From: an uncultured Rickettsiales bacterium
GTDB lineage: Bacteria > Pseudomonadota > Alphaproteobacteria > Rickettsiales > CAIJLX01
Direction: 5' to 3'
NCBI GenBank assembly: GCA_964414595.1
Contig: CAYPXJ010000002.1
Span: 22,328-86,327, forward strand
DNA: 64,000 bases
In this document: piece by piece, positions 6,862 through 57,624 of the stretch
How the letters are laid out: every line of letters starts with the position of its first letter
Numbering within the stretch: the first letter of the stretch is position 1
Position numbers and translations under genes: made by a program
The notes under the pieces: model-generated
What the model saw: only the letters and a program-made list of their open reading frames with translations
Database searches by the model: none
What the model was told of the DNA's origin: nothing

Positions 6862-8757
6862 ATGTGCGGAGTTGCTGGGCTGTTATCGTGGTCATCCCGA
6901 TTAAGTGCGGCAGACCTACAAGCAACAGCCGCACACATGGCTGATGCCCTTATTACTCGCGGGCCAGATGGCAGTGGCGTATGGGTCGATGCATCAAGCG
7001 GTATCGCACTTGCGCACCGCCGATTGTCGATCATCGATTTGTCACCCCAAGGTCAGCAACCGATGGCTTCCTCGAATGGCCGTTATGTCATAAGTTTCAA
7101 TGGCGAGATTTATAATTTTGAAGAATTGCGCGCGCAACTCCATGAAACCTGGCGCGGACACTCCGATACCGAGGTGTTGCTTGCTTGCGTTGCGGCGTGG
7201 GGGGTAGAAAAAACCTTACTTAAACTGAATGGCATGTTTGCTTTCGCTTTATGGGATAAAGAAGAGCGAACCTTAACGCTCGCACGCGACCGCATGGGGG
7301 AAAAACCGCTCTATTACGGTTGGGTAGGCGATCAATGTGTATTCGCTTCTGAACTCAAGGCTTTTCAGGGTTTGAGCAACTGGCCGCCTGAGATTAACCG
7401 TGACGCCTTGCATCTATTGATGCGCTACAATTATATCCCTGCACCCTATTCAATTTATACTAACATTTATAAACTCAGGCCGGGCTATTACTTGCGTATC
7501 AAAGCCGGGCAAATGAGCGCGGAACAAACTCCTTATTGGTCGTTTGAGACCATGGTGGAAAGAAGCACGCGCTATCGTTATGTCGGTGGCAAAAAAGAAG
7601 CCATCGACCAGCTCGAGAATTTGCTAAAATATGCAGTGAAGCAGCGCATGGTGGCGGATGTGCCTCTAGGCGCATTTCTCTCGGGGGGGGTTGATTCTTC
7701 CACGCTGGTTTCGCTGATGCAGGCGCAATCGGCGCGCCCTGTAAAAACTTTTACTATTGGCTTTCACGAACCAAAATTCGATGAATCACCTTTTGCCAAA
7801 GCCGTGGCTAAACATTTAGGAACCGAGCATACGGAAATTTACCTTTCTGCCGCGGATACGGAAAATATCATTCCACTACTACCGAACATTTACGACGAAC
7901 CATTTGCTGATTCTTCGCAAATCCCAACTTATTTAGTATCGCGATTTGCCCGCCAGCACGTAACTGTGGCTCTTACAGGGGACGGAGGCGATGAGATATT
8001 CGGAGGTTATAACCGCTATATCAGCGGCGTCCGAATATGGAATGCCGTTTCTGTTTTGCCTTTAGGTTTACGCAAAAAATTAGCGGATATGCTATTGGCA
8101 ACGCGTTCCTCATTTCTATTTCGTTTGGCGCCAGGGGAAACCTTTAAACGCAGACTTTACAAAGATTATGAAAAAATCACAGCCACTTCGCCCGAAGATT
8201 TTTATCATAGCATGTGCTCTCTCAATCCTCATCCCAGTAGAGTGGTCAATGGCGCGCAAGAGCCAGCTTACCAAAAAAGCGGTATGCATCTTGGCCTCGA
8301 TTTTTCTGAGTGGATGATGCTTCAGGATGCGATCACCTATTTTCCAGGTGATATTCTTACCAAAGTGGATCGCGCTTCTATGTCCGTGGGTTTGGAAACA
8401 CGCACTCCCTTTACCGATCCGGAGGTAATGGCTTTTGCCTGGCAGTTACCGCTGAACATGAAAATCCATCAAGGTAAGGGTAAGTGGTTATTACGTCAGC
8501 TACTCTATCGCTATGTGCCGCAAAACTTGATCGAACGGCCAAAAGCCGGCTTCTCTGCGCCTCTAGGTGATTGGTTAAGAGGTTCATTAAAAAGATGGGC
8601 GGCCGACCTTCTTTCGACCGATACACTCAAAAGGCAAGGCTACTTTAACCCTGCGACGGTCGAAAAAATCTGGCAAATACACCAATCCAATCGCCGCGAT
8701 ATGGAACATCAGCTATGGAGTATTCTTATGTTTCAATCCTGGTTAAATAAGGCCTGA
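6862..8757 (+). CDS. asparagine synthase (glutamine-hydrolysing), AsnB-type amidotransferase
   Basis: MCGVAG N-terminus (Cys2 Ntn glutaminase) and PP-loop LSGGVDSS. 631 aa. Confidence 0.9.
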   Translation: MCGVAGLLSWSSRLSAADLQATAAHMADALITRGPDGSGVWVDASSGIALAHRRLSIIDLSPQGQQPMASSNGRYVISFNGEIYNFEELRAQLHETWRGHSDTEVLLACVAAWGVEKTLLKLNGMFAFALWDKEERTLTLARDRMGEKPLYYGWVGDQCVFASELKAFQGLSNWPPEINRDALHLLMRYNYIPAPYSIYTNIYKLRPGYYLRIKAGQMSAEQTPYWSFETMVERSTRYRYVGGKKEAIDQLENLLKYAVKQRMVADVPLGAFLSGGVDSSTLVSLMQAQSARPVKTFTIGFHEPKFDESPFAKAVAKHLGTEHTEIYLSAADTENIIPLLPNIYDEPFADSSQIPTYLVSRFARQHVTVALTGDGGDEIFGGYNRYISGVRIWNAVSVLPLGLRKKLADMLLATRSSFLFRLAPGETFKRRLYKDYEKITATSPEDFYHSMCSLNPHPSRVVNGAQEPAYQKSGMHLGLDFSEWMMLQDAITYFPGDILTKVDRASMSVGLETRTPFTDPEVMAFAWQLPLNMKIHQGKGKWLLRQLLYRYVPQNLIERPKAGFSAPLGDWLRGSLKRWAADLLSTDTLKRQGYFNPATVEKIWQIHQSNRRDMEHQLWSILMFQSWLNKA

Positions 8758-9930: not shown

Positions 9931-11256
9931 ATGATCTCAATGACTATAGCGAAGTTTTGTTTTATTCTGCAAGACATGTTCAAACCTTCAAAATATTTAG
10001 CGGACAATCTTAAATCACTTGGGGGGGGTGGTGCACAATTTTTGATTGTTTTATTTTCTACCCCCGTGATGACACGCCTCTACGATCCGTCAGCCTACGC
10101 GACTTTTGGTCTTATCAATTCTTCTGCTACTGTATTCGTGAGCATTGGCATGCTCTCCTTGCCTTACGCTTACCCGACCGTACAGCGATCGGCAGATCGT
10201 GCACGACTTATGCAGTGTATGCTGTGGATGTTAGTTGGTCTAACTCTACTATCTGTAATGGTTGCGTTAATAATAAGAATCACCGACATGAGGCATGTGG
10301 GTATGGATATTTCGGAAACCGCCTTATTGTTTTTTCCTTTGCTCGTTCTAACAGGCGCTGCACGACAGATTATGTTGATGGTAGCCGTTGAGCGCGCCCA
10401 TTTTAACAGCACCTCATTGGGGCAAATCATTGAGCCTATTTGCTCGCGCGGTGGCGCGATTGCGCTTGGCTCTGTCGCAGGCGGGCACCCGGCATTTGTG
10501 TTAGCTTCGATGGTATTTGGTTATGTAGTAACCACGGTTTCCGTAGGCTTATTAGTTGTTGATAAGGGAATGCGCCACTGGATTGCCACCATACATTCCC
10601 GCAAGCAATTTTTTTCAACTCTTCGACGCTATAAAAATTTTATCTTCTACTCAACGCCTACACAGCAATTATTTCCTCTGACTACTCTTGGTGTACAAAT
10701 GATGGTTGCCCTATTTTTTTCAAGCGAGCAGACCGGTCATTTTATTTTAGCCAGTTCTATCCTTACTTTGCCCGTCACACTGATTGCTTTGACCACCGCA
10801 CCTGTGGTGTATCGGCGTCTTATTGAAATAGAGCGCAAGACTCCTGAAAAACTCCTAGAACATATCGTGATGTTATCCGTTTTGTATCTCATTGGGGGTA
10901 TAGGTCTGGTTACGCCTATATTTTTGTTTGGTGAATCTATTTTTACTTTTATTTTTGGGGCCAACTGGACGGAGGCGGGTGCTATAGCTGAGATCTTAAG
11001 TGTGGCCTATTTTTTTGCGTTTGCCGCTGTAGGTCTACAATCAATTTTCCGGATCATACGGCATCAGGGCACCGAACTTATGTTAGAAATTGTGAGCTGC
11101 TCTATTATCGGGCTTGTGGCTGTCTTATGCTTTGTTACTATGAATTTTTACCAGGCCTTGTTATGCCTCTCTTGCGCTTGGCTTTTGCGTAACTTAATAT
11201 TGTTGTCCAGCGGCTTGCTGTTGACGCGTCGATACATAAAAAATCTCACTGCATAG
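9931..11256 (+). CDS. polysaccharide flippase (Wzx / MOP superfamily)
   Basis: 441 aa with about 12 hydrophobic segments. Sits in a glycan locus. The exact start is uncertain (several early Met codons). Confidence 0.7.
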   Translation: MISMTIAKFCFILQDMFKPSKYLADNLKSLGGGGAQFLIVLFSTPVMTRLYDPSAYATFGLINSSATVFVSIGMLSLPYAYPTVQRSADRARLMQCMLWMLVGLTLLSVMVALIIRITDMRHVGMDISETALLFFPLLVLTGAARQIMLMVAVERAHFNSTSLGQIIEPICSRGGAIALGSVAGGHPAFVLASMVFGYVVTTVSVGLLVVDKGMRHWIATIHSRKQFFSTLRRYKNFIFYSTPTQQLFPLTTLGVQMMVALFFSSEQTGHFILASSILTLPVTLIALTTAPVVYRRLIEIERKTPEKLLEHIVMLSVLYLIGGIGLVTPIFLFGESIFTFIFGANWTEAGAIAEILSVAYFFAFAAVGLQSIFRIIRHQGTELMLEIVSCSIIGLVAVLCFVTMNFYQALLCLSCAWLLRNLILLSSGLLLTRRYIKNLTA

Positions 11257-11258
11257 AT

Positions 11259-12488
11259 ATGAACCAAAAGCCTTATGTACTTTTAATAGCACCCCATGCA
11301 CCTCCTAGAAATGGTGCAGAAGCTATTCAAGTACGGCGCATTCTCAAAGAGTTAGATATACAGGCCACAGGACGCCTCATTACTGTAGCGCCGGAGGCAG
11401 CTTCATGGGTACATCACGATGCGTCTCTCGAGCTAAAGCTCAACCATTTCGATACACAAAGTCTTAGGCTTCCTTTCCATCGCCTGACTAGCCGTGTGTT
11501 TATGTCACAGCGATTCAGACTTTTTCATATGCCTGATTCGCTATGCTGGATCCAGTTGCAAGCAGGGACAGTAATCAAACAGCTTACTAAAAAACCTGAT
11601 ATTTTATACTCCAGATCTTTCCCTCTCAGTGCAGCATTATTGGCGCGAGGGCTTAAAAAGCAGTTATCTATTCCTTGGATTATGCACTTAAGCGATCCCT
11701 GGGCCGATAGTCCCTTTACATTGCCAGATCGGCGGCATGCAAAACTAGAAGCCGCGTGCTTTGAGCAAGCAAACCTTATTACGTTAACTGCACAAGGTCA
11801 GGCAGATTTTTACAAAAACAAATATCCTCAATTCGCAAACAAAATAATCGTTTTACCTAACGTAATGCCTGATGTTGAGGAATCAGGTAAATGGGTGCAA
11901 CACCTACTTGCAGCAGATGACCGCTTACATATTGTTTTCGCAGGTAGCCTTTATGGTAGCCGTTCACCCAAACCTTTATTAGATGCGCTCGATATTATTC
12001 GCCAGTCGCAACCTGAGTTACTAAAAAAACTTCGCATTGATTTTTATGGAAAAACGCAGGATCACATACTTAAGCTATTGCAAAGCAGCCCGGATATTCG
12101 CTATCGCGGTGCCGTTTCTTATGCCGAGGCATGCGCAGTACAATACGCCTCCGATATCGCCCTAACCATCGAAGCGGATAGTGAACATCCCTTAATCAAA
12201 GCAACCTTACTATCTAAAGTGACGGATTGCTTTGCCCTGGGAAAACCAATGCTGTCTATTACACCGGAAGGCAGTGAAACGGAGCGGATTTGCAAGAGTG
12301 GTTATGGTTGGTCTGCGGCGCCTTCAAACCCACAGGAAATTGCAAAACTTCTTTGTGGCCTGGTAGAAAAACTTCCAGAATTGCGTGCAGCAAAACCAAA
12401 GCCAGCTCCTGAATATTATCAGGCTGAGCGTGTTGTCAGCGGTTTACTTACCCAGATGCAAAAACTTATCGAGGAAAGTAATCGGTGA
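11259..12488 (+). CDS. putative glycosyltransferase (GT-B-like)
   Basis: 409 aa, two-lobed Rossmann-like pattern (HIVFAGSLYGSRSP..., LGKPMLSITPEGSE). Operonic, with coupled stop/start on both sides. Motifs are weaker than in the other GTs. Confidence 0.6.
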   Translation: MNQKPYVLLIAPHAPPRNGAEAIQVRRILKELDIQATGRLITVAPEAASWVHHDASLELKLNHFDTQSLRLPFHRLTSRVFMSQRFRLFHMPDSLCWIQLQAGTVIKQLTKKPDILYSRSFPLSAALLARGLKKQLSIPWIMHLSDPWADSPFTLPDRRHAKLEAACFEQANLITLTAQGQADFYKNKYPQFANKIIVLPNVMPDVEESGKWVQHLLAADDRLHIVFAGSLYGSRSPKPLLDALDIIRQSQPELLKKLRIDFYGKTQDHILKLLQSSPDIRYRGAVSYAEACAVQYASDIALTIEADSEHPLIKATLLSKVTDCFALGKPMLSITPEGSETERICKSGYGWSAAPSNPQEIAKLLCGLVEKLPELRAAKPKPAPEYYQAERVVSGLLTQMQKLIEESNR

Positions 12489-13627
12489 CATCTCCTCGTG
12501 TGCTCCTGCTGGGCTATTACGGCAAAGGCAATTTTGGCGATGATGTCTTGCTCACCGTTACCTACAAACTTTTAAAGCGCGAAATACCTCACGGTGTATT
12601 CCATACGATTATTGACGATGAAAAGGGCTATGTGACCTCGTTGTTTCAGGACATCACAATTCTAAAATCCGGCTACCATGGGCATTTTGATGTGATCGTG
12701 CATGGGGGGGGTGGTGTATTTTTTGATTTTAAGGCACATGGGGCTGGCACAAAATTGTTAGAGAATGTTTTTGAAATTCTCGGCGCACCAACTTATCTAA
12801 AGCTAGAGCGATTCGTGCGTAAAATGACGCGTAAACGCCGCACCTCGACCACGCATCGTGTTGGGTTAGGTATCGGCGTTGGCCCTTTTTCTCGTGGTTC
12901 AATAAGCCTGTGGCGTGATCGCCTGCCTATACTTGCTGATTTTGATGCGTTATGGGTACGCGATGCTCAAAGCCTAGATAATCTAAAGCGTTTTGCACCC
13001 GTCATGACTTCAGAAATTATTCGTGGTTCTGATTTAGCTTTTTTAACCGAACATTGGTTACCCGCCTTAGCGCCCAAGCACCGCTCTTTCCGCCCACGTC
13101 TGGGAATCATTCTGCGCGATTGGCCTGAAGAGACTGGGGGCACTCCTTACCCGTTACTTACGTCGATTTTTTCAAAGCTTGCCCAAACTTACGAGGTCAC
13201 GGGCTTTATTTTTGATCAGCGGCAGGATCCTAAATTACGATCCTTACTGGCAGCATTCACCACACATATTTGGCAGCCGCATACCATGCGCCTTGAAGAT
13301 TTTGCCCATCACCTGCACGGGCAGGATGTACTGTTGACCAGTCGGGCCCATGGAGCAATCTGCGGCGCCTGCCTTGGCGTTCCCAGCGTCATCGTCAACA
13401 TCGAACCCAAGCTGGAGCAAGTGCACAAGATGTTGCCGAATGCCACCCAGCTTGTCGCCGCCAATCGCACGGATGATTGGGAACAAGCGATTAAGAACGC
13501 ACTGAACACCTCGAGCGAATCAATCGCTGCTGATGTCGCCCACAATCGCCAATCTTCCACCGAGGCACTCGCAAAAATACGCCCCTATTTCTTAACCAAA
13601 AACGATGTTGGCGATGTGTTTTTATAG
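12485..13627 (+). CDS. polysaccharide pyruvyl transferase (CsaB/WcaK-like)
   Basis: GTG start overlapping the upstream TGA. N-terminal LLLGYYGKGNFGDDVLL signature and C-terminal LLTSRAHGAICGACLGVPSV. Confidence 0.8.
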   Translation: MTSPRVLLLGYYGKGNFGDDVLLTVTYKLLKREIPHGVFHTIIDDEKGYVTSLFQDITILKSGYHGHFDVIVHGGGGVFFDFKAHGAGTKLLENVFEILGAPTYLKLERFVRKMTRKRRTSTTHRVGLGIGVGPFSRGSISLWRDRLPILADFDALWVRDAQSLDNLKRFAPVMTSEIIRGSDLAFLTEHWLPALAPKHRSFRPRLGIILRDWPEETGGTPYPLLTSIFSKLAQTYEVTGFIFDQRQDPKLRSLLAAFTTHIWQPHTMRLEDFAHHLHGQDVLLTSRAHGAICGACLGVPSVIVNIEPKLEQVHKMLPNATQLVAANRTDDWEQAIKNALNTSSESIAADVAHNRQSSTEALAKIRPYFLTKNDVGDVFL

Positions 13628-18998: not shown

Positions 18999-19045
18999 TG
19001 GTTGCGGGGGCTGGATTTGAACCAACGACCTTCAGGTTATGAGCC
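18999..19045 (-). repeat. int-distal att repeat: displaced 3' part (47 nt, anticodon stem G31 to CCA) of tRNA-fMet
   Basis: tggttgcgggggctggatttgaaccaacgaccttcaggttatgagcc matches 57548-57594 at 42/47 positions. It lacks the 5' half of the tRNA. Sequence diverges immediately after ...gagcc. Confidence 0.9.
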
Positions 19046-19091
19046 CGCATACCCACATTCTATCCTATTGATATTTTAAGGGCTTTTTTAG

Positions 19092-19135
19092 GCGCGATAT
19101 GTTTTGTGCGAGATTTTGTGCGAAAAATTTGCGCA
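19092..19135 (+). promoter_or_regulatory. candidate arm-type recombinase-binding repeats (GCGCGATA; TGTGCGA x2 plus a degenerate TTGCGCA)
   Basis: GCGCGATA at 19092-19099 and TGTGCGA at 19105-19111 and 19117-19123. The same two motifs recur at the other ICE end (57421-57510). Confidence 0.5.
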
Positions 19136-19164
19136 GAAATCCGCTAATTAGGAAATCCAACCAA

Positions 19165-20337
19165 TTAGATATATTCTCTTCTTGTAACCTGAGCGATTAG
19201 TTTCCAAATTTTGTCGCTGCGCTGATTCATGGGATTACGTAGATCAAGTTGTTCTTCCGCCCACCGTATCCATTGCTCCATTGTTTTGTCGCCTAGCTCT
19301 CTTGAGTCGTCCCTAGGCATTTGCTTTAACTTTGACAGGAACCTACGGGCAGTTTCCACCTCTTGCCATATATTCGCCATATTGATGAAACATTGCCAGC
19401 GGTCATCTTCCTGTTTCCGATACCGCTCCTCCTCCAGGCGTTGTTGTCGCTTGATTTCTGATTGACGCTTTTCCTCTTCTTCTTGTTTTCTCCTTGCAAC
19501 AAAAAGAGGAATTGCGGCAAGAATTGTTGCCACGATATCCGCTAACATATCTTCCATTGTATGATTGGAAGATTCTACCCACTCATGGCGCATATTCTCA
19601 GGCAGCCAGGTTCTTATCGTGAACACCAGGCAACCTGTGGGCACCAACTCACGCATGGTGGTTCTGTCTCTATAGAAAACTGACTCCTTTTCTTCTTCGG
19701 TGAGAGGTCTGTATATTTGTTTCAGCTTCTCTCGCATATTGAATTCCACCTCTTCTTGTTTGAATTCTACAGCCAGCCCTCCCCTATCATTTTGCTTTAT
19801 CTTGCCGCCTTTTGCTTCCAGTGCATTAAACAATCCTTGTAGGATAAGGTGGATGCGCTTATCGGTTCCAGTTAATTTCTCTGGTTTCCATATTTGTCGC
19901 CGCACAGGATCGAATTCCCTCCGATATTGCGCCCATTGGTTCTCATTTTCCTTAAGCCATTTTCCAATGATAGGATGTGGTTTCACCAGTCGCTTTGGTA
20001 TATGAATACGCGGATTCTTAAGGCGCATCTCAGCTATCGCCGCTTTTACCTCTGGCCGCACCTTCTTATTTAATGAAGTGGCACGAATGTAAGCACCCTT
20101 TGGCGTATTTTCTTTCTGTGTCGGCAATTTTCGGGTCGTTACGTTATATCCCGCTGCTTTCTTTGCCCAATATCCACGTGCCGGATATGGCACGTTTAGA
20201 CGGTCACAGATTTTCCGCAGACCGCTATCCGAAACCCCATACTGACCAGCGAGCTTACTCATGGGTGTCTGCCAGACCTGAACATATAATTCTTCACGGG
20301 TGACTAGTTTCCCTTTTGATGGTATCTCAGAATTCAT
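19165..20337 (-). CDS. hypothetical protein (N-terminal conserved basic domain, central region, charged coiled-coil C-terminal part)
   Basis: 390 aa. N-terminus TREELYVQVWQTPMSKLAGQYGVSDSGLRKICDRLNVPYPARGYWAKK. Later RRKQEEEEKRQSEIKRQQRLEEERYRKQ. Divergent from the helicase gene and AT-rich. Confidence 0.6.
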   Translation of the reverse strand: MNSEIPSKGKLVTREELYVQVWQTPMSKLAGQYGVSDSGLRKICDRLNVPYPARGYWAKKAAGYNVTTRKLPTQKENTPKGAYIRATSLNKKVRPEVKAAIAEMRLKNPRIHIPKRLVKPHPIIGKWLKENENQWAQYRREFDPVRRQIWKPEKLTGTDKRIHLILQGLFNALEAKGGKIKQNDRGGLAVEFKQEEVEFNMREKLKQIYRPLTEEEKESVFYRDRTTMRELVPTGCLVFTIRTWLPENMRHEWVESSNHTMEDMLADIVATILAAIPLFVARRKQEEEEKRQSEIKRQQRLEEERYRKQEDDRWQCFINMANIWQEVETARRFLSKLKQMPRDDSRELGDKTMEQWIRWAEEQLDLRNPMNQRSDKIWKLIAQVTRREYI

Positions 20338-20495
20338 GTAGCCTCCCCTTGTCTTCTTTGCTAATCAAACTTCTCTATTATCAATAGATTAAAAGAAATA
20401 TTGGCAAGGTATTAGCATCCTTTATTATATACGCAAGATTTGCCTGAGTATTTATCAGCGACGCTAAAAAAACTTAGAATCAGAATGAGATACCA

Positions 20496-23400
20496 ATGCA
20501 GAATGTAGTTAAAATGCCTAAGCCTCAAATCTTCGAGCATGGCGCTGCATTTTTGAAAGATTTGACCCGATATTACATGGATTTTCTGGAAACAGATTTC
20601 CATAAGAGGCCTCTACCTAAAAGATATATAAGGATCAGAGACTCAAAAGGTCATCTTACCGGCATAAATCTTAGAAAATATGAGAATTGCCGTAAAGCTA
20701 TCTGGAGATTTTTTACGGAAGAAGGAACTGAAAACTCTAATTTAGAAATAAGGAGGGGTCAGTACAAATCCCGAATTAAAACCAGTCTAAAGAACTTCAT
20801 CGATAATAATATTGAAGAACTTAAAGAAGACACTCTAAACGAGACAATAACCCAGGCTGTTAAAGACTTTAGGGAACATAAAAAGAAGTACCGTGACGAT
20901 TGGGATAACTTCTATGAAGAAAGCCTCGAAACAATCCGAAATCTTGTTTTAAGAAATATTATAAGACCGCTTTCTGAGGTACTTGAGAAGCCGCTTATTG
21001 AAGAAAAGTCATTAGGCCTGGAAACGATTTTTGAGCTCGAAGACGATCTAATCGATCTGCTTTGTTCAGATATAAATGAAAGTATAGATAAGTCTCTCAT
21101 CCAGTTTTTTACAAAAAACCAAGCAGAAGAAATTACCAAGTATCTCAAAGACCTTCTGCAACGAGACGTACTGGTAGATAAGCTAAAGGCATTTTTTGAA
21201 AATTTCAGCTCCAGTGATCTCTTCTTAGAATTTAATGAAATATTTGAGAACAACCGCTTAAACGATAAGGAAGATATTTACCTCTATTTTTGTGACATCA
21301 ATTTTAGCAAGCGAACATATCCTCTCTTTTATTTTCCCATACAAATTGAAAAGCAGATTGATAAGTTCGTCATGCATTTCGATCCGCATATCCTTATTAA
21401 TAAGAAAGCCATCGAATATATTGTCCAAGAATATAATAAAGAAGCGCAGAAAACAGGTGGAATTAATAGCCTGAAAGATAGAATTCTCTACGCTACATCA
21501 GAGGAAGAAAAGAGAATTTGTGACCACTTGCAGCCTATTGTCTCTGATATTGCCTCTCATTTTTCTTTGTCCGATACATTAAATCTCGAAGATGAAAAGC
21601 CTTCTCAACAAAAGTCACTATACGCAAATATAACGAATGATATTTATTTTTGCCTTTTTGATAGATCGGACGAAGCATTAGTTAATGATTACGAGGAACT
21701 ACTTCAGTTAATTGAAGAAGGTGACAATCCTCTTTCAGAGATTTTTATTAACCTTATAAATGGCTACATCGTTGATGATCCTGTTTCCTATACCAGCGAA
21801 GTCGAAAGCGAATGGGATGCCAGGAATATTTCTGAACGATTGGTTTATGATTCTCCCATTCCTTTAAATGAAGAACAAAAAAAGATTCTAAGCGCACTTC
21901 AAAAAGAAGGATGCAGGTACATAGCTGTGCAAGGCCCTCCAGGGACAGGAAAGAGCCACACAATTACAGCCATAGCCTTTGATGCCATTATACGTAATAA
22001 CTCAGTTCTTATTCTGTCTGACAAGAAGGAGGCGCTTGATGTAGTGGAAGACAAAATCGTTGATACGATTAATAAAGTCCGTATTTCAGATGATTTTCAG
22101 AACCCTATCCTAAGACTCGATAAGCGTAACTTCGGCAAAATTATTACGGCTTCCTCACTTACGAAAATTAAAGACCATTACAAAGCCTCCAAGCAAAAAG
22201 AAGATGAGGTTGAGGCTCTACTCAAGGAAAAACAAGTTTCACTGCAAGAAGCCATCTCCCATACAATTTCTCAATATGAGTCTGTTGATCTCAAAGGAAT
22301 TAAGGAATTCCTCGATCTTGAAACAGCAGTGGGAAAGAAAGTAGATTTAAAAAAGCTAAAAACAACCAAAGACTGGTCGGCCATCTCCTTGGCGCTGACT
22401 AACTTCTTTGTTTGTATTGGGCAGCACCAGAATAACCAAAATTATCTATTCTTGGTCGATACTCTTCTAAAAGAGCATAAAAACTGGTTTGACGAAGGCA
22501 TTTCTACCACCATACAGATTTTTCGACTAGCTGCTGAGATGAATCAGGAGGGTTATGGTGACCAGTTATCGGTTTTGCTGAATATCACAGAGGAAACGGA
22601 AGGTACCTTACAGGATTATATTCATCAGTATAAGTTGCTGACCTCAGGCTTCTTTAAAGGCTTCTTCAGAAAAGCGGAGATAAAACAGTTAGAGATTCAG
22701 CTAAATTCCTCACTTGAACTAAGAAGGTTCGTTACATTCGCAGAAGATTTAAGGCTCTTGGAGAAAGCATATTTCTGTATATCAGAAATAAAATACCGAC
22801 TGCGTGAGATAGGCGAAAATCATTTTCTGGAATTCTGTCGCATTCTCACGCATCCCGACTGCCCGGATATAGCATTGCTTGACCAGCTTTCCCCAATCCA
22901 AGAGTTTATCAAACTGAACGGGAAGTTGCCCAAGCCCTTGCTTAATAAACTGAAAATGGATTTCAGCATTCAGGGGGCAAAAGATAAAGAGGCCATCCTA
23001 AAATCTTTAAATGCCATTAACCTGCTGCGTTCCTATGAAGATGCAGAGCAAAAATACATGCGCCTTTTTGGGGAAATTCCTGATGTAAGTTACTCCGACG
23101 TATGCCATCAAATGGAGAAGTTGCAGACCACTAAAATGGCAAACCTTATTGATAAGAGGGTTATCGATTTTGTAGAGGGCAGCAGATCTACGGCACAAAC
23201 ACTTAAAAAGATCATATCCAAGAAGCAAAAATTTCCACGTGTTGAGTTTGAAAAAATCAAAGAAGCATTTCCGTGTATCATCGCAGGAATACGTGATTAC
23301 GCGGAGTATATTCCTTTAGAAAGGGAATTATTTGACGTCGTAATCATCGACGAAGCTTCTCAGGTAAGTATTGCACAGGCCTTTCCTGCAATTCTTAGAG

Positions 23401-24692
23401 CCAAGAAAATTATTGTGCTGGGGGATAACAAACAGTTCAGTAACGTAAAAACATCGAATGCCAGCAATGTAATAAATCACCGCTACATGAACGATATTAA
23501 GGCAAGCTTCCTTAGCCATATATCCGCCGATGCTGCAAAATTAGAACGGATTCAGCAATTTAATATCAAAACATCCATACTCGAGTTCTTTCAACATATT
23601 GCTAACTATCACGATATGCTGAGAAAGCATTTCCGTGGGTACAGAGAGTTAATTTCTTTCTCCAGCCGATGGTTCTATGACGGAAATCTTCAGGCAATCA
23701 AAATTCGTGGAAAACCCATAGATGAGGTCATAAAATTTACTATCCTTCAACATGATAAGAAACTGGAAGTTTCGGAAAGAGCAAACACAAATCCATTTGA
23801 AGCAGAATTCATAATTAAGGAGCTGGAGAATATTTTAGAGGGTGAAAACCCACCTAGCGTGGGAGTTATTACTCCTTTTACAAATCAGCAAAAGTATATT
23901 GCCACTGAAATATCAAAATCGGATTACGCAGATGACATCTATTCTAAACTTAAACTTAAAGTAATGACGTTTGACACATGCCAGGGCGAAGAGCGGGATA
24001 TTATTTTCTACTCAATGGTTGCCTCTCCTATATCTGACAGGACAAACTATATATTCGCCAGTGACTTAAAACACGACAATGATGATGAGAAAAAAATACG
24101 GTTACAACGCCTGAACGTTGGGTTTAGCCGGGCAAAAGAGTGCATACATTTTATCCTTAGTAAACCTCTTGAAGAATTCAGCGGTTCTATAAGTACTGCC
24201 CTTAAACACTATCAGAAACAGCTGGAAGTGGGGAGAGAACAACCCTCCGAAGCTGATGTTGATCCCTCATCTCCTATGGAGAAGAAAGTGCTGGAGTGGA
24301 TTAAGGATACAAGCTTCTATCAGGCTAATACAGATTACCTTAATCTCCATGCTCAATTTCCGATCGGAGAATATTTAAAACAACTGGATAATGGTTACAA
24401 ACACCCCAGCTATCGTTGTGACTTTCTTCTGCAATATTTAAAGGAGGGAAAGCCACTCAATATCATCATTGAATATGATGGCTTTAAAGAGCACTTTACT
24501 GATTGGGATGATGTCAACGAACTGAATTACCAAAATTATTATAAAGCTGCCGATGTAGAGAGAGAAAAAATACTGGAAAGCTACGGCTATAAGTTTATCC
24601 GAATCAATCGTTTCAACCTTGGTGATGATCCCGTAGTTACACTTTCAAAACGATTAGAAAATCTCGTAAAAAAAAAACTCAATAACACTTGA
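20496..24692 (+). CDS. large SF1 (Upf1/DNA2-like) helicase fused to a C-terminal Vsr/DUF559-like restriction-endonuclease-fold domain
   Basis: Walker A VQGPPGTGKSHTI, motif II VVIIDEASQV, TFDTCQGEERDIIFYS, RLNVGFSRAKE. C-terminus YRCDFLLQ..IIIEYDGFKEHF..ADVEREKILESYGYKFIRINRF. About 470 aa of the N-terminus are unassigned. Confidence 0.85.
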   Translation: MQNVVKMPKPQIFEHGAAFLKDLTRYYMDFLETDFHKRPLPKRYIRIRDSKGHLTGINLRKYENCRKAIWRFFTEEGTENSNLEIRRGQYKSRIKTSLKNFIDNNIEELKEDTLNETITQAVKDFREHKKKYRDDWDNFYEESLETIRNLVLRNIIRPLSEVLEKPLIEEKSLGLETIFELEDDLIDLLCSDINESIDKSLIQFFTKNQAEEITKYLKDLLQRDVLVDKLKAFFENFSSSDLFLEFNEIFENNRLNDKEDIYLYFCDINFSKRTYPLFYFPIQIEKQIDKFVMHFDPHILINKKAIEYIVQEYNKEAQKTGGINSLKDRILYATSEEEKRICDHLQPIVSDIASHFSLSDTLNLEDEKPSQQKSLYANITNDIYFCLFDRSDEALVNDYEELLQLIEEGDNPLSEIFINLINGYIVDDPVSYTSEVESEWDARNISERLVYDSPIPLNEEQKKILSALQKEGCRYIAVQGPPGTGKSHTITAIAFDAIIRNNSVLILSDKKEALDVVEDKIVDTINKVRISDDFQNPILRLDKRNFGKIITASSLTKIKDHYKASKQKEDEVEALLKEKQVSLQEAISHTISQYESVDLKGIKEFLDLETAVGKKVDLKKLKTTKDWSAISLALTNFFVCIGQHQNNQNYLFLVDTLLKEHKNWFDEGISTTIQIFRLAAEMNQEGYGDQLSVLLNITEETEGTLQDYIHQYKLLTSGFFKGFFRKAEIKQLEIQLNSSLELRRFVTFAEDLRLLEKAYFCISEIKYRLREIGENHFLEFCRILTHPDCPDIALLDQLSPIQEFIKLNGKLPKPLLNKLKMDFSIQGAKDKEAILKSLNAINLLRSYEDAEQKYMRLFGEIPDVSYSDVCHQMEKLQTTKMANLIDKRVIDFVEGSRSTAQTLKKIISKKQKFPRVEFEKIKEAFPCIIAGIRDYAEYIPLERELFDVVIIDEASQVSIAQAFPAILRAKKIIVLGDNKQFSNVKTSNASNVINHRYMNDIKASFLSHISADAAKLERIQQFNIKTSILEFFQHIANYHDMLRKHFRGYRELISFSSRWFYDGNLQAIKIRGKPIDEVIKFTILQHDKKLEVSERANTNPFEAEFIIKELENILEGENPPSVGVITPFTNQQKYIATEISKSDYADDIYSKLKLKVMTFDTCQGEERDIIFYSMVASPISDRTNYIFASDLKHDNDDEKKIRLQRLNVGFSRAKECIHFILSKPLEEFSGSISTALKHYQKQLEVGREQPSEADVDPSSPMEKKVLEWIKDTSFYQANTDYLNLHAQFPIGEYLKQLDNGYKHPSYRCDFLLQYLKEGKPLNIIIEYDGFKEHFTDWDDVNELNYQNYYKAADVEREKILESYGYKFIRINRFNLGDDPVVTLSKRLENLVKKKLNNT

Positions 24693-24726
24693 GCTTACAG
24701 AAGACATTGTTGAAAAGGCCAGAAAA

Positions 24727-25020
24727 TTGGGTGCTGGCGAAGCTAAAGAGTGCCCAATATGTGAAGAAGTAAAACCCCTCTCTGAATTCAAAGATAGCCG
24801 TTTAAAGAGCGGCATAGGCAGAAACTGTAAATCGTGTAAAACAGGCGGGCATAAAACGACCCGTAGCAATCACTACATGACACCTGAATTAGCTGAACTC
24901 CAGTCACCTAATTGCCCTTTATGTAATAAGAAAATGAAAATTAGGTTCCGCAGACGCGACGGTAATCCCTTCTGGGGTTGTCCTGGTTTCCCTTACTGCA
25001 AGGGTACGAAAGAAATATAA
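24727..25020 (+). CDS. double zinc-ribbon protein with a topoisomerase-type C4 finger (may be a frameshifted C-terminal extension of the helicase)
   Basis: CPICx17CKSC and CPLCx18FWGCPGFPYCKGT. There is no ATG start (TTG at 24727). The frame is open back into the A10 run at 24668-24677. Confidence 0.55.
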   Translation: MGAGEAKECPICEEVKPLSEFKDSRLKSGIGRNCKSCKTGGHKTTRSNHYMTPELAELQSPNCPLCNKKMKIRFRRRDGNPFWGCPGFPYCKGTKEI

Positions 25021-26088
25021 TTACGCGCAAACTTTTGCCAGTGCTTTTACGGCACGCTGGAAGTGATCGCCTTTATCAGTCTTTGATAGACTAATACGCT
25101 CATTAAGTCCGGTTTTGCTGGATAATTCTATATATCCATATTCCGCTATTGGAATTTCAGGATTATCACTAAATCTCCGATCGGGTCCGCCACCTTTATT
25201 CACGTATTTCCATGTTCTACCAACTATATTTGCATCACTAGGCACGCCGTCTTGCTCAATAAAATTGCTTGAGTAAATATTAAAATCCAAATCTCTGTAA
25301 GAAACTGCTCCAACAGCGTTATTTTCAAAGACCAATAGTCTGTCAGGAAAGAAAAAAAGTGTTTGTCTTCCCGCGCCAATCGCAGGGGTAAGAATATTTG
25401 TTTTGACGAAAGGTGCTTGTCTCTTAGCTATAAAGGTAGTTTTACGTTCTATTAAATTATCGGCACCCGCATGATATTTTTTATCATACACTCTGCCCTG
25501 CGCCTCGATATGCCAAACCTTCTTACAGGATGCCATTTCATCGATGGCATGGTGAAGCGCCTCATATAAGGGCTCTATATCGCCCTCTAATTCGTAGAAT
25601 AACACCACCGTTTTCCGCATCTGATCGTAATAATATGCTGCTAACGTCACTATAGCAGTCACAATAATTCCAATTAAATGCCAGGCAGACAACCAAGTGA
25701 GTACAAGTCCGACGGTAAGAGCTACAGGCCATATCCTCCATTTTTTACGTTTTGCATTCAACTCATTAAGTAATTCTGATGAGTCTGAATCCGTCATAGC
25801 AAAAACGGTTGTGCTTTCAATTTCTTCTAAAGGCGCATGTGTAGCATTGTCAGCTTCCTGAGATTTATACGGCAGCGGCTCAGATTTTGAATGTCTTGTT
25901 TTGTTGTCGGCAATCGGGGATAAGGTTTTTCGATAGTAAATCCCACCTCTGCCCATATGAACATAATTGCCACGAGGCCCCATACCAACCCGGAACCCCT
26001 TAATGCCTGCAGATACGCCGACCCCTGACTTTGAAAGATTAAACCTTAGAGGGCCTACAGTAATGCTTTTTCTTAAATAAAACCCCAT
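25021..26088 (-). CDS. DUF4236-domain membrane protein
   Basis: N-terminus MGFYLRKSITVGPLRFNLSKSGVGVSAGIKGFRVG (DUF4236 signature as I recall it). Two TM helices (WRIWPVALTVGLVLTWLSAWHLIGIIVTAIVTLAAYYY). About 190-aa C-terminal domain with FFFPDRLLVF...GGGPDRRF. Confidence 0.7.
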   Translation of the reverse strand: MGFYLRKSITVGPLRFNLSKSGVGVSAGIKGFRVGMGPRGNYVHMGRGGIYYRKTLSPIADNKTRHSKSEPLPYKSQEADNATHAPLEEIESTTVFAMTDSDSSELLNELNAKRKKWRIWPVALTVGLVLTWLSAWHLIGIIVTAIVTLAAYYYDQMRKTVVLFYELEGDIEPLYEALHHAIDEMASCKKVWHIEAQGRVYDKKYHAGADNLIERKTTFIAKRQAPFVKTNILTPAIGAGRQTLFFFPDRLLVFENNAVGAVSYRDLDFNIYSSNFIEQDGVPSDANIVGRTWKYVNKGGGPDRRFSDNPEIPIAEYGYIELSSKTGLNERISLSKTDKGDHFQRAVKALAKVCA

Positions 26089-26109
26089 ATAAGAAGTGAA
26101 ATTAAATTC

Positions 26110-26253
26110 TTATTTTTTCTTAGGTGGCGGCGGTTTTATATCTGATGTAGGCGTTACCTTGCCAGACTGTGGCATAGGTTTCTGAGTGGTGCTAGTTAAT
26201 GTGGCATACCCTTTATGCTGGAAAGCAGGAGCAAGAGAATCTTTTTCTGACAT
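26110..26253 (-). CDS. possible small Pro/Lys-rich protein (47 aa), not in the ORF track
   Basis: The ATG immediately follows the TAA of the upstream gene (TAAATG). The tail GKVTPTSDIKPPPPKKK echoes the upstream protein tail GLVTPSSALKPPAPTQKSK. Low-complexity, so uncertain. Confidence 0.3.
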   Translation of the reverse strand: MSEKDSLAPAFQHKGYATLTSTTQKPMPQSGKVTPTSDIKPPPPKKK

Positions 26254-26790
26254 TTATTTACTTTTCTGCGTAGGCGCGGGAGGTTTTAGTGCGCTACTGG
26301 GTGTGACCAATCCTTTTATGGTATCTTGCTTGCTTGAAGCAGCTGGCGGCGGCGCTTTCGTTTCTTCTTGTCGAGAATTTGAGTTATTCATACTTACCGA
26401 GAAAGTTAGAGTAGCATAAGTCAAAAAGACAATAATACCAAAACAGATTAGAAACAAGCTTACACAGTTGAACACCGTCGTGCAGCTATTCCAACGCATT
26501 GTTTGTTTATACATTTCGTTCGTTCTCTTTGTGGGCTTAGTATTCCTATAATTATACGCTAAATGATTATGTCTCTCAGAAGTCCCATGTGAAAGTAGTA
26601 CAGAAACAATAGCCAAACCAAAACACCACCACGATGCGACTAAAAGTTCATAATAAGCAGCTACAGATATTCCAATAATGTTAACAAAATAAACTGAAAA
26701 GCCTAATGCAGTAGTAGAAAGTACCAGAAGCTCTTTATCTAGTGTTTTCCTAGATTCATCAAGATTTTGATAAAATTTATCTTTACCCAT
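26254..26790 (-). CDS. hypothetical integral membrane protein
   Basis: 178 aa with 3-4 hydrophobic segments and a Pro-rich C-terminal tail. AT-rich and co-oriented with the DUF4236 gene. Confidence 0.55.
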   Translation of the reverse strand: MGKDKFYQNLDESRKTLDKELLVLSTTALGFSVYFVNIIGISVAAYYELLVASWWCFGLAIVSVLLSHGTSERHNHLAYNYRNTKPTKRTNEMYKQTMRWNSCTTVFNCVSLFLICFGIIVFLTYATLTFSVSMNNSNSRQEETKAPPPAASSKQDTIKGLVTPSSALKPPAPTQKSK

Positions 26791-26853
26791 TTTCTGCTTT
26801 GCTATCTATTCCGGGTATCCTCTAGCCTTCTTTATACAAAATTCTGCAATTAA

Positions 26854-27243
26854 CTACAATGTCTCCTGATACTTCTCCGTCAGGCTGTCTGCTATTGCGC
26901 GGACAATACCGCATACCCGGTTTCGCACGGCGCGTGAACGGATACGGTGGAAATGCGCAATCAACATATCGACACCGTGCGGGTTCCATAATTTTTCCTT
27001 AGCCAGGCGGGTTTCTTCTAGCACATCTTCGCATAGCTCATCCACGGAACATTTATAGAAAGCCGCAAGCTCAATCAGTCGTGCGGCGGTGATATTATTT
27101 GCCCCGCTTTCGTATTTTTGCAGCTGCTGGAAGCTGATTTGAAGATGTCCAGCGACGGTTTTCTGTGAAAGACCTGCCAGCATTCGCCGGTGGCGAACGT
27201 TTTTACCGATACGTGCATTGAGGGCAGAGAGGCGATCTTTCAT
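26854..27243 (-). CDS. XRE-family HTH transcriptional regulator (paralogue of 44207-44581)
   Basis: HTH core LAGLSQKTVAGHLQISFQQLQKYESGANNITAARL. About 40% identical by eye to the regulator at 44207-44581. GC is backbone-like, unlike its neighbours. Confidence 0.8.
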   Translation of the reverse strand: MKDRLSALNARIGKNVRHRRMLAGLSQKTVAGHLQISFQQLQKYESGANNITAARLIELAAFYKCSVDELCEDVLEETRLAKEKLWNPHGVDMLIAHFHRIRSRAVRNRVCGIVRAIADSLTEKYQETL

Positions 27244-27281
27244 ATACCGAATAGAACAATCGTATCTTTATATAGATTTCA

Positions 27282-27298
27282 TATCGTGCAATACGATA
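27282..27298. promoter_or_regulatory. candidate operator palindrome TATCGT-N5-ACGATA in a divergent promoter region
   Basis: Lies in the 133-bp gap between the divergent HTH genes (27243 / 27377). Related ATCGT/ATCGC half-sites are nearby. Confidence 0.35.
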
Positions 27299-27376
27299 CC
27301 ATATATCGCTACGGGAGTTAAGAAAATTCATTACCTGATAATTTTGGGACGATCCAATCCCAATGAAGGTAATGGT

Positions 27377-27643
27377 ATGAAAAAGAAAAAAGCGAGCGAA
27401 GCAACAAATCTTTGCGGCAAACGCATCAAGATTGCACGAATTTCTAAAGATATGAAACAAATCGACGTAGCGTCTGCGATGAATGTGGAATACGGCATCG
27501 ACATTACGCAGAATGGAATCTCTTATATTGAACGCAACCGCCGCTTTGTTAAAGATTACGAGCTGGTAGCGCTGGCGAAAATACTTGGGGTTAGTCCCCT
27601 CTGGCTGTTATTCGGCGATAAAATTCCGGCGGAATATAAATGA
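27377..27643 (+). CDS. XRE-family HTH protein (88 aa), first gene of a three-gene cassette
   Basis: I prefer the start at MKKKKASE (ATG 27377, GAAGG upstream) over the track start 27218. HTH MKQIDVASAMNVEYGIDITQNGISYIERN. The stop overlaps the next start (ATGA). Confidence 0.75.
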   Translation: MKKKKASEATNLCGKRIKIARISKDMKQIDVASAMNVEYGIDITQNGISYIERNRRFVKDYELVALAKILGVSPLWLLFGDKIPAEYK

Positions 27644-43987: not shown

Positions 43988-44053
43988 ACCTCCTAAGACG
44001 GTAGTCGTCCCTCAGGGCAGGTTTACTGTTGAGCGTGAAGCGCGAATAAAAAC

Positions 44054-57547: not shown

Positions 57548-57624
<77 letters not shown>

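What the first reader, a model, noticed from the sequence alone, without database searches (positions are those of the whole stretch)
19165..25020. Giant SF1 helicase / Vsr-DUF559-like nuclease with a divergent 390-aa partner and a trailing zinc-ribbon ORF
The 1398-aa protein has an unassigned ~470-aa N-terminus, a complete Upf1/DNA2-like SF1 motif set and a C-terminal DUF559/Vsr-like endonuclease fold (DFLLQ..IEYDG..H..D..RE). Helicase-nuclease fusions of this kind underlie single-protein defences, as I recall them (Hhe, Nhi, Mokosh type II, Hna). However, the N-terminal region lacks the DUF4011-type LRNRLLNF motif I associate with Hhe. The divergently transcribed 390-aa protein has a conserved basic N-domain (PYPARGYWAKK) and a charged coiled coil; it shares a 158-bp promoter region with the helicase gene and could be a partner or regulator.
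Basis: partly seen in the sequence, partly recalled or inferred. Interest (0 to 1): 0.6.

Follow-up and report, generated by a model that had tools for sequence, protein, structure and literature searches.

The report
Helicase-nuclease gene split by poly-A frameshift
A giant helicase-nuclease carried as cargo on a conjugative element belongs to a large uncharacterised, defence-like family, and its "trailing zinc-ribbon ORF" is really the family's own C-terminal tail, put out of frame at a run of ten A's that recurs at the same spot in a dozen diverged relatives, so the gene probably makes a short and a long protein by slippage.

Summary
The three ORFs exist as described, and the SF1 (Upf1-like) helicase core and a divergent Vsr/DUF559/MTES_1575-type nuclease domain are confirmed. 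Two interpretations fail. (1) The 390-aa divergent gene is not a partner. Its 42-member family never sits beside a helicase, and none of 40 helicase-family loci has it. It is the terminal gene of a probable ~38.5-kb tRNA-Met-integrated Trb-type ICE. (2) The 97-aa zinc-ribbon ORF is not a separate gene. About 90% of 120 family representatives carry this tail, or at least its first ribbon, fused in frame. In the window, homology runs upstream of the nominal TTG start right to an A10 run (24668-24677) where the frame changes. Twelve independent lineages have the tail out of frame, and each has a 9-10-nt homopolymer exactly at the junction. Eleven of the twelve are in the -1 frame, mostly with A_AAA_AAG. 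The window is the +1 exception. The shifted tails are intact and under purifying selection, and seven lack any start codon. No locus without such a run is shifted. The best reading is a single-gene, defence-like helicase-nuclease with a family-specific N-domain of unknown fold. Transcriptional slippage or frameshifting at the run would give isoforms with and without the tail. Phase variation is the main rival. It is not a member of Hhe, PDC-S37, Mokosh or ProA.

The parts
19000..19047 (-). tRNA-Met 3'-half-like fragment, the likely distal att end of an integrated element whose other end is the intact tRNA-Met at 57548-57624
   Evidence: It has the same orientation as the tRNA-Met, shares a 20-nt exact core and is similar over ~47 nt. 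It is the only part of 19000-26200 that matches a public plasmid-collection record (Proteus, 48 bp).
19165..20337 (-). 390-aa protein of unknown function. It is the terminal gene of the element and not a partner of the helicase.
   Evidence: Small family of 42 clusters with no Pfam, PDB or PADLOC hit. Homologues sit at island edges without a helicase, and tblastn finds none in the helicase loci held at that point.
20401..20428 (+). Promoter-like site upstream of the helicase gene
   Evidence: TTGGCA-16-TATTAT, 10 of 12 matches. This is a consensus match only.
20496..21863 (+). Family-specific N-terminal domain (aa 1-456): a helical bundle plus an alpha/beta module, fold unassigned
   Evidence: AlphaFold model pLDDT 81. 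No PDB or BFVD match below E=0.06. 441 representative clusters carry it, always at the N-terminus where the protein is long enough to judge (1400-1700 aa). Invariant motifs listed.
21864..24167 (+). Upf1-like SF1 helicase core (aa 457-1224) with a ~330-aa variable helical insertion (about aa 545-860) between Walker A (aa 480-487) and DEASQ (aa 952-956)
   Evidence: AAA_11 and AAA_12, invariant motifs, PDB sequence hits to Upf1, IGHMBP2, Sen1 and DNA2.
24168..24692 (+). Divergent MTES_1575/DUF559 (Vsr-like PD-(D/E)xK) nuclease domain, followed by the 0-frame ending LVKKKLNNT*
   Evidence: Model pLDDT 89. Weak Foldseek matches, mostly restriction endonucleases and related nucleases. Pfam evidence. 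Invariant D1309, E1326, D1328, H1333 and R1356.
24668..24677 (+). A10 homopolymer, the frameshift or slippage site between nuclease domain and zinc-ribbon tail
   Evidence: It is the only homopolymer of 9 nt or more in the 64-kb window. A 9-10-nt run lies at the same position in all 12 shifted lineages.
24670..25020 (+). C-terminal linker plus two zinc ribbons (the second is topoisomerase-I C4 type) in the +1 frame.
   Evidence: It aligns to the fused tail of about 90% of family members. PF01396 hit. It is conserved at 64% and 51% identity in L001 and L005. Codon-position differences of 26/23/75 show purifying selection.
25021..26088 (-). DUF4236 protein (phrog_17982), convergent with a 0-nt gap. 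It is a neighbouring cargo gene and not shown to be part of the system.
   Evidence: Homologues lie directly downstream of other SF1 helicase-nuclease genes in L053, L038 and a P. aeruginosa plasmid, but are absent from most contexts.

Best explanation
One gene, not three. The locus encodes a single-protein helicase-nuclease of a large, uncharacterised family. Its parts are a family-specific N-domain, a Upf1-like SF1 helicase with a big insertion, a Vsr/DUF559-type nuclease, and a tail of two zinc ribbons. It is carried as low-GC cargo at the far end of a tRNA-Met-integrated Trb-type conjugative element. Ordinary translation stops nine codons into the A10 run (LVKKKLNNT*) and gives a 1398-aa protein without the tail. 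The tail lies in the +1 frame and can only be joined to the body if the frame changes at the run. In 11 related lineages the same junction carries A9, A10 or T9 with the tail in the -1 frame. RNA-polymerase slippage (one extra A), or -1 ribosomal slippage on A_AAA_AAG, would therefore give a longer isoform carrying the predicted nucleic-acid-binding tail. In the window, one A fewer or two more would do the same. Inferred, not shown: the enzyme translocates on foreign nucleic acid, cuts with the nuclease domain, and acts in defence against phages or plasmids. The N-domain would be the sensor, and the zinc-ribbon tail would tune nucleic-acid binding.
For: Tail is the family C-terminus: 96 of 120 representatives carry both ribbons fused and 11 carry one. 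Window homology continues from the TTG back to the run. Frameshift tied to the homopolymer: 12 of 12 shifted lineages have a 9-10-nt run at the junction. None of about 38 loci without such a run is shifted. Two loci carry an in-frame A9. All 12 'short' proteins among the top 120 stop within 17 aa after KK(K). Expression of the tail: all shifted tails are intact ORFs of 112-231 aa. pN is 0.22 against a saturated pS of 0.92. Seven of 12 have no ATG, GTG or TTG before the first zinc Cys, and in all 12 the tail frame opens at or before the run. Stability and direction: 11 of 12 are in the -1 frame, and the state persists through clades that are only ~50% identical. No conserved downstream hairpin was found, which favours transcriptional slippage. 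Precedents are runs of 9 A or T in the Thermus thermophilus dnaX gene and the A11 run in the Citrobacter rodentium tssM1 gene (PMC1088944, PMC4256274). Single-gene, mobile context: no neighbour is conserved among 260 flanking ORFs of 40 loci. Neighbours include seven integrases, transposases, methylases, GajB-like helicases, AbiEii and SoFic. The window shows a GC drop to 0.38-0.41, Trb, TraG, TraI and ArdC genes, and a tRNA-Met plus its fragment. Nuclease mutation abolishes defence in the architecturally similar Hhe (bioRxiv 10.1101/2022.06.16.496414).
Against: No experiment shows defence, helicase or nuclease activity for any member. PADLOC and NCBIfam hits cover only the helicase core. The window itself is the odd one out: A10 with the tail in +1, so -1 frameshifting cannot rescue it. 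That state could be a recent mutation, a phase-variable OFF state or a one-base assembly error. The window has a TTG with a weak AAAAGG 8 nt upstream, so independent initiation of a 97-aa product is not excluded here. Two relatives with A9 are in frame, and the frame state toggles within clades, as phase variation would also produce. The lineages are not fully independent phylogenetically.
Confidence: 0.55

Rival explanations
1. Phase variation. The poly-A tract is a contingency locus. DNA replication slippage switches the zinc-ribbon tail ON (fused) or OFF (truncated) heritably, and there is no programmed recoding at the RNA or ribosome level.
For: The frame state toggles within two clades, and in-frame A9 members exist (L022, L177). 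The window needs a different correction from its relatives. The same window has three G8 runs inside intact polysaccharide genes, typical of organisms that use homopolymer switches. Purifying selection on the tail is equally expected under this model.
Against: Eleven of 12 shifted lineages share one frame (-1) and only 2 of 14 run-bearing loci are in frame. A freely switching tract should scatter across states, especially across clades with saturated dS. Four contigs of the P0002 gene from four sequencing runs all carry A9.
Confidence: 0.25
2. In this particular genome the split is a plain loss-of-function frameshift or a one-base homopolymer assembly error. The tail is then either not made, or is really fused (A9) or in the -1 frame (A11).
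For: The window is the only +1 case. Relative to L001 it has two extra bases (A10 against A9, CTCA against GAC). One lineage (L174) has lost the tail altogether. The sequencing technology of the source assembly is unknown.
Against: The tail ORF is intact over 113 codons. No other homopolymer-linked ORF break was seen in the window. An error cannot explain 11 other lineages from independent projects.
Confidence: 0.12
3. The protein serves the mobile element or the host in DNA repair, replication or transfer rather than defence.
For: It sits on an ICE next to transfer genes. L001 places it beside a relaxase and ArdA. The sequence is unusually conserved across phyla for a defence gene (42% identity over the full length). 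No defence model matches the full length.
Against: There is no conserved housekeeping or transfer-gene neighbour in 40 loci. Distribution is patchy across Proteobacteria, Patescibacteria, Atribacterota and archaea. The architecture parallels the validated defence protein Hhe.
Confidence: 0.15
4. One reading: a multi-gene system in which the divergent 390-aa protein regulates or partners the helicase, with a separate zinc-ribbon protein.
For: Divergent arrangement with a shared 158-bp region. An HTH-like N-terminal module in p390.
Against: There is no co-occurrence in either direction. The closest helicase homologues (71% and 66% identity) lack p390 but keep the tail. The zinc-ribbon sequence is fused in most of the family.
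Confidence: 0.03

Closest known systems
Hhe (DUF4011 helicase with Vsr-like nuclease; single-protein anti-phage system of E. coli)
   Same: One large protein with an SF1 AAA_11/AAA_12 helicase core followed by a Vsr/DUF559/MTES_1575-type nuclease. In Hhe the nuclease residue E1731 is needed for defence (bioRxiv 10.1101/2022.06.16.496414).
   Different: No DUF4011; a different ~456-aa N-domain; a zinc-ribbon tail instead of DUF3320. Scores are 92 bits against a 2000-bit NCBIfam cut-off, and 62 bits in PADLOC over the core only.
PDC-S37 (PADLOC single-gene defence candidate)
   Same: Best PADLOC hit, with a collinear helicase-nuclease region (model positions 928-1252).
   Different: Only 143 bits over the core, whereas a true member (L038) scores 585 bits. 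The N-domain and tail do not match. No paper on PDC-S37 was found.
CoCoNuT type III-B CnuH (UPF1-like helicase fused to a Vsr-like nuclease; PMC11090510)
   Same: A UPF1-like SF1 helicase with a helical insertion, fused directly to a Vsr-like PD-(D/E)xK effector.
   Different: CoCoNuTs are McrBC-linked operons. Here no neighbour is conserved in 40 loci, and no McrB- or McrC-type family appears among the 25 commonest neighbour families.
Transcriptional slippage genes: T. thermophilus dnaX (A9), C. rodentium tssM1 (A11), S. flexneri mxiE, IS elements (PMC1088944, PMC4256274)
   Same: A run of 9-11 A or T inside a coding sequence at a domain boundary, a nearby 0-frame stop, and two length variants of which the longer needs a non-templated base.
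   Different: Not demonstrated here. The host gene is a defence-like helicase-nuclease. The site recurs in at least 12 diverged lineages. The window's own configuration (+1) differs from the family norm (-1).
E. coli dnaX -1 programmed ribosomal frameshift
   Same: The identical in-phase slippery heptamer A_AAA_AAG occurs in seven shifted relatives.
   Different: No conserved upstream SD-like or downstream hairpin stimulator. Here the shifted product is the longer one. The window cannot use a -1 shift.

Membership tests
Upf1-like SF1 helicases | Walker A, DEAxQ, motifs III-VI; AAA_11 and AAA_12 above Pfam thresholds | tested here: met
   AAA_12 at 76 bits and AAA_11 at 58 bits against a cut-off of 27. 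Motifs are invariant in 22 sequences. Best PDB hits are Upf1, IGHMBP2, Sen1 and DNA2.
Hhe | N-terminal DUF4011 domain | tested here: not met
   No DUF4011 hit even at E<=10 on aa 1-453.
Hhe | Full-length match to NCBIfam NF042953 (cut-off 2000 bits) or the PADLOC Hhe model | tested here: not met
   92 bits and 62 bits, helicase core only.
PDC-S37 | Full-length match to PADLOC model PDLC05009 | tested here: not met
   143 bits over aa 936-1272. All 22 family members score E>=8.7e-46, against 1e-175 for the true member L038.
Mokosh (MkoA/MkoC) | MkoA/MkoB pair, or MkoC with a PLD nuclease; full-length model match | tested here: not met
   Hits of 122-134 bits restricted to the helicase C-terminal core. 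The nuclease is Vsr-like, not PLD.
ProA (NCBIfam NF058533) | Equivalog cut-off of 1500 bits | tested here: not met
   135 bits. No literature found.
MTES_1575 / DUF559 (Vsr-like PD-(D/E)xK nucleases) | Pfam gathering score reached by the window protein | tested here: not met
   MTES_1575 at 18.4 bits against 38.2, and DUF559 at 13.7 against 20.6.
MTES_1575 / DUF559 (Vsr-like PD-(D/E)xK nucleases) | Homology at family level, and a conserved D...ExD..H...RE core | tested here: met
   Family member L014 reaches DUF559 at 22.4 bits, above 20.6. Members hit MTES_1575 at 3.5e-5. tblastn at 1e-5 links to relatives whose domain scores MTES_1575 at 1e-33. Invariant D1309, E1326, D1328, H1333 and R1356. 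Foldseek's top hits are mostly restriction enzymes, but at E>=0.014.
CoCoNuT type III-B | Conserved association with McrB-like GTPase (CnuB) and McrC (CnuC) | tested here: not met
   No neighbour cluster is shared by more than 2 of 40 loci. No such family appears among the 25 commonest neighbour families.
Programmed transcriptional slippage genes | Run of 9 or more A or T in the coding sequence, with ORF continuity restored by +/-1 nt and conserved among homologues | tested here: met
   A10 in the window; A9, A10 or T9 in 11 other shifted lineages at the same junction.
Programmed transcriptional slippage genes | Heterogeneous mRNA run lengths and two protein products | not testable with these tools
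   Needs cDNA sequencing and protein analysis.
-1 programmed ribosomal frameshift (dnaX type) | In-phase X_XXY_YYZ heptamer leading into the extended frame | tested here: inconclusive
   Met in 11 relatives (A_AAA_AAG, A_AAA_AAC, A_AAA_AAA, T_TTT_TTG). Not met in the window, whose tail is in the +1 frame.
-1 programmed ribosomal frameshift (dnaX type) | Conserved downstream stimulatory structure | tested here: not met
   MFE z-scores of the 50 nt downstream are -0.8 to +1.5 in 11 of the 12 shifted members and -2.3 in L121.
Phase-variable contingency locus | Run-length polymorphism among near-identical genomes | tested here: inconclusive
   Four contigs of P0002 from four runs all carry A9. No read-level data were available.

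The most novel reading that the evidence does not exclude
A deeply conserved recoding site in an immune-type gene. RNA-polymerase slippage (or -1 frameshifting) at a poly-A run between the nuclease domain and the zinc-ribbon tail sets a fixed ratio of tail-less and tailed helicase-nuclease isoforms, and both are needed for function, as with dnaX tau/gamma or TssM1. This would sit in a large, unstudied single-protein family (441 clusters at 50% identity) whose N-terminal domain has no match in the PDB or viral structure libraries searched.
Probability: 0.4. Interest if true: 0.75.

Novelty: new variant of a known kind. Interest (0 to 1): 0.62.

Why it matters
SF1 helicase plus Vsr-like nuclease fusions are a known kind of single-protein defence. 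This family is distinct, with its own N-domain and zinc-ribbon tail. It is large, spread across bacterial phyla including CPR and into archaea, and entirely unstudied. The recurrent homopolymer frameshift matters in three ways. First, it corrects annotation: these genes are split into a 'helicase' and, at best, a small orphan zinc-ribbon ORF. In L001 and L005 the tail is not called at all. Second, if programmed, I know of no described case of transcriptional or translational recoding controlling the domain make-up of a defence-type enzyme, and the literature searches here found none. Third, it gives a simple experimental handle (locked short, locked long, native) for asking what a zinc-ribbon DNA-binding tail does in such enzymes.

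Tried and rejected
- **Sequence searches against solved structures.** A phmmer search of the C-domain against PDB sequences found nothing. A p390 profile against PDB found nothing.
- **Source organism.** An exact look-up of the window protein's contig failed, and the cluster members carried no organism names. The source organism stays unknown.
- **Literature.** Searches for PDC-S37 and ProA found nothing usable.
- **Similar DNA in plasmids.** A megablast of 19000-26200 matched only the 48-bp tRNA-like piece. The Trb backbone has only distant relatives.
- **Integrase.** No integrase could be recognised beside the tRNA-Met, so the ICE boundaries are inferred from the tRNA fragment alone.
- **HTH_17 gene as a conserved regulator.** Rejected, because it is present in only two lineages.
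- **DUF4236 protein as the true partner.** Considered because of four adjacencies to related helicases. Rejected for this family, because it is absent from 39 of 40 family loci and from six of seven plasmid contexts.
- **Structure-stimulated -1 PRF.** No conserved hairpin was found.


Full report
**1. What is in the sequence**

The three ORFs are present as described: 19165-20337(-) of 390 aa, 20496-24692(+) of 1398 aa, and 24727-25020(+) of 97 aa with a TTG start.

The 1398-aa protein has these features:
- It hits AAA_11 (aa 457-598) and AAA_12 (aa 1026-1218).
- All SF1 motifs are invariant in a 22-sequence family alignment: GPPGTGKS 480-487, DEASQ 952-956, GD..Q, TFD.CQGEE and QRLNVG.SR.
- The nearest solved sequences are Upf1, IGHMBP2, Sen1 and DNA2.
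- About 330 variable residues (roughly aa 545-860) are inserted between Walker A and motif II.
- Residues 1-456 match no Pfam family, DUF4011 included, even at E<=10.

**2. The C-terminal nuclease domain**

- The window protein alone is sub-threshold for MTES_1575 (E=0.0023) and DUF559 (E=0.058).
- Other family members reach MTES_1575 at 3.5e-5 and DUF559 at 22.4 bits, above the 20.6 cut-off.
- tblastn links the domain (E=1e-5) to the C-termini of distant helicase relatives. Those C-termini are canonical MTES_1575 domains (E=1e-33).
- An AlphaFold model (pLDDT 89) finds only weak Foldseek matches. The leading ones are mostly nucleases: BstEII (E=0.014), MspJI, SwaI, RecU-like PrfA, VRR_NUC, PaqCI and FokI.
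- D1309, E1326, D1328, H1333 and R1356 are invariant.

I accept a divergent Vsr/DUF559-type PD-(D/E)xK nuclease.

**3. The family**

- More than 2000 clusters at 90% identity match over the full length, typically at 42-44% identity and ~1520 aa.
- The N-domain alone finds 441 clusters at 50% identity. Where the protein is long enough to judge, the domain is always at the N-terminus of a 1400-1700-aa protein.
- Its model (pLDDT 81) has no match in PDB or BFVD.
- Members occur in Alpha- and Betaproteobacteria, Saccharibacteria, Parcubacteria and other Patescibacteria, Atribacterota, Latescibacterota, Zixibacteria, Syntrophaceae and an Aenigmarchaeote. A few lie on IMG/VR contigs.
- The family is not a member of any known system. 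Scores are PDC-S37 143 bits (a true member, L038, scores 585), MkoA/MkoC 122-134, Hhe 62 in PADLOC and 92 of 2000 in NCBIfam, and ProA 135 of 1500. All cover only the helicase core.

**4. The zinc-ribbon "ORF" is the protein's own tail**

Of the 120 best family representatives, 96 carry two zinc ribbons fused after the nuclease domain and 11 carry one. The first ribbon is KECPKC...GRxCxxCK. The second is the topoisomerase-I C4 type, PF01396.

The window's 97-aa ORF aligns to this tail. In the window, homology to the fused linker continues upstream of the TTG to an A10 run at 24668-24677. The fused linker in P0004 reads LYLDVTEDIIEKAKKLSTGDAKECP.
- Frame 0 reads LVKKKLNNT* and stops.
- Frame +1 reads KKNSITLELTEDIVEKARKLGAGEAKECP and continues into the tail.

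This run is the only homopolymer of 9 nt or more in the 64 kb. No promoter-like site lies between the helicase stop and the TTG.

**5. The same junction in relatives**

I fetched DNA for about 52 independent family loci and tabulated the junction.

| State of the tail | Loci | Homopolymer at the junction |
|---|---|---|
| Out of frame, +1 | window | A10 |
| Out of frame, -1 | L001, L005, L172, L173, L176, L019, L121, L132 | A9 |
| Out of frame, -1 | L175, L013 | A10 |
| Out of frame, -1 | L113 | T9 |
| In frame | L022, L177 | A9 |
| In frame | about 38 loci | no run of 9 nt or more |
| Tail lost | L174 | A7 only |

- In the eleven -1 cases, the 0-frame heptamer is A_AAA_AAG in seven, A_AAA_AAA in two, and A_AAA_AAC and T_TTT_TTG in one each.
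- The 0-frame stop follows 1-19 codons later.
- All 12 "short" proteins among the top 120 stop within 17 residues after KK(K).

**6. The shifted tails are functional sequence, not debris**

- All are intact ORFs of 112-231 aa with CxxC motifs.
- Between the window and L001, differences by codon position in the tail frame are 26/23/75. pN is 0.22 against a saturated pS of 0.92.
- In seven of the 12 lineages there is no ATG, GTG or TTG in the tail frame before the first zinc-binding Cys. In all 12 the tail frame opens at or before the run.
- A neighbour-joining tree puts the shifted members in two deep clades together with a few in-frame members that keep KK or KKK. The arrangement is therefore old and has been kept through ~50% protein divergence.

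**7. Mechanism of the frame change**

Runs of nine or more A or T are the classic RNA-polymerase slippage sites. They are counter-selected in coding regions unless they are used (PMC1088944). Known uses include the A9 run in the Thermus thermophilus dnaX gene and the A11 run in the Citrobacter rodentium tssM1 gene, where both length variants are required (PMC4256274).

- Transcriptional slippage explains every case here, including the T9 run and the window's +1 configuration.
- A -1 ribosomal shift on A_AAA_AAG could contribute in the relatives but cannot rescue the window. I found no conserved downstream hairpin: z-scores were -0.8 to +1.5 in 11 of the 12 shifted lineages and -2.3 in L121.
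- DNA-level phase variation is the main rival. It fits the toggling within clades and the window's three G8 runs in polysaccharide genes. It fits less well with the 11:1 frame bias, with only 2 of 14 run-bearing loci being in frame, and with identical A9 in four contigs from four sequencing runs.
- For the window alone, a recent mutation or a one-base assembly error cannot be excluded. A9 would be in frame and A11 would be the family's -1 state.

**8. The 390-aa protein is not a partner**

- Its family is small, with 42 clusters and no Pfam, PADLOC or PDB match.
- In homologous loci it lies next to a ParB-methylase and DUF5681, or next to a large serine recombinase and R-M genes. It sits at island edges and never with a helicase.
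- tblastn found it in none of the 40 family loci or the roughly 130 related helicase loci held at that point.
- The closest helicase homologues (71% and 66% identity) lack it but keep the tail.
- In the window it is the last gene before a tRNA-Met 3'-half-like fragment at 19000-19047.

**9. Genomic context**

- An intact tRNA-Met at 57548-57624 and the fragment at 19000-19047, in the same orientation, bracket about 38.5 kb.
- This stretch contains TrbB and TrbE, TraG, a TraI relaxase, the traJ-II RNA, ArdC and a methylase. It is probably an ICE, although no integrase was recognised.
- The helicase lies in a low-GC cargo block (0.38-0.41 against 0.57 for the Trb genes).
- Across 40 family loci no neighbour is conserved; no neighbour cluster is shared by more than two loci.
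- The commonest neighbouring domains are tyrosine integrases (7), transposases, methylases, GajB-like helicases, AAA_15/21, AbiEii, SoFic and type IIG R-M.

This supports a self-contained, horizontally mobile, defence-type gene, but it does not prove defence.

**10. Verdict**

The finding that deserves attention is the conserved homopolymer frameshift that separates the zinc-ribbon tail from the enzyme.

Noticed in passing
window 7683-7690, 10021-10028, 12704-12711: Three G8 runs lie inside intact ORFs of the polysaccharide or glycosyltransferase cluster (ORFs 6862-8757, 9931-11256, 12485-13627). They may be phase-variable contingency loci.
   Followed up: no
window 19000-19047 and 57548-57624: A tRNA-Met 3'-half-like fragment and an intact tRNA-Met in the same orientation bracket ~38.5 kb holding Trb, TraG, TraI, ArdC and methylase genes. 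This is probably an integrated conjugative element. No integrase was recognised next to the tRNA (ORF 56106-57407 has no family hit).
   Followed up: partly
window 25021-26088 (-); L053 13488-14564; L038 13466-13990; L181 (P. aeruginosa pHPA0875-2): The DUF4236 protein (phrog_17982) abuts the zinc-tail stop with no gap, in convergent orientation. Full-length homologues lie directly downstream, on the same strand, of other SF1 helicase-nuclease genes: a true PDC-S37 member, a Chromobacterium relative, and a 2221-aa DUF3320 protein. Six other plasmid contexts show no helicase.
   Followed up: partly
L117, about 5590-5600 (tail linker): An in-frame TGA sits where the family has a conserved Gly (GLEN*DMKECP against GLQNGEMKECP). 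This suggests a host that uses genetic code 25.
   Followed up: no
L001 2982-3173; L177 1313-1504: A 63-aa HTH_17 (AlpA/excisionase-like) gene overlaps the helicase start by 4 nt in two distant clades (52-56% identical to each other). It is absent from the window and from the other loci.
   Followed up: partly
L019, L121, L132 (tails after the A9 run); L174; L111: Three shifted members have longer tails of a different kind (200-231 aa, up to six CxxC motifs). L174 (A7) has lost the tail in every frame. In L111 the second zinc ribbon is in another frame.
   Followed up: no
window 19165-20337 (-); P0134, P0138: The N-terminal ~45-aa module of the 390-aa protein (LYxxVWxxP...GLxKxC...IPxPxxGYWxK) is duplicated in two longer homologues. 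It weakly matches the C-terminal end of a PHROG annotated as HNH endonuclease (E=3.6e-4), so it may be a DNA-binding module.
   Followed up: partly
window 26254-27643: Further cargo lies between the helicase and the Trb genes: a membrane protein with a weak SLATT-like hit (26254-26790), an XRE/RstR-type HTH repressor (26854-27243), and an ORF overlapping its 5' end on the opposite strand that matches phage repressor families (27218-27643).
   Followed up: no
window 44006-44084 (-): A traJ-II RNA motif (RF01760, 47 bits against a gathering score of 40) lies about 110 bp beyond the start-codon end of the TraI relaxase gene.
   Followed up: no
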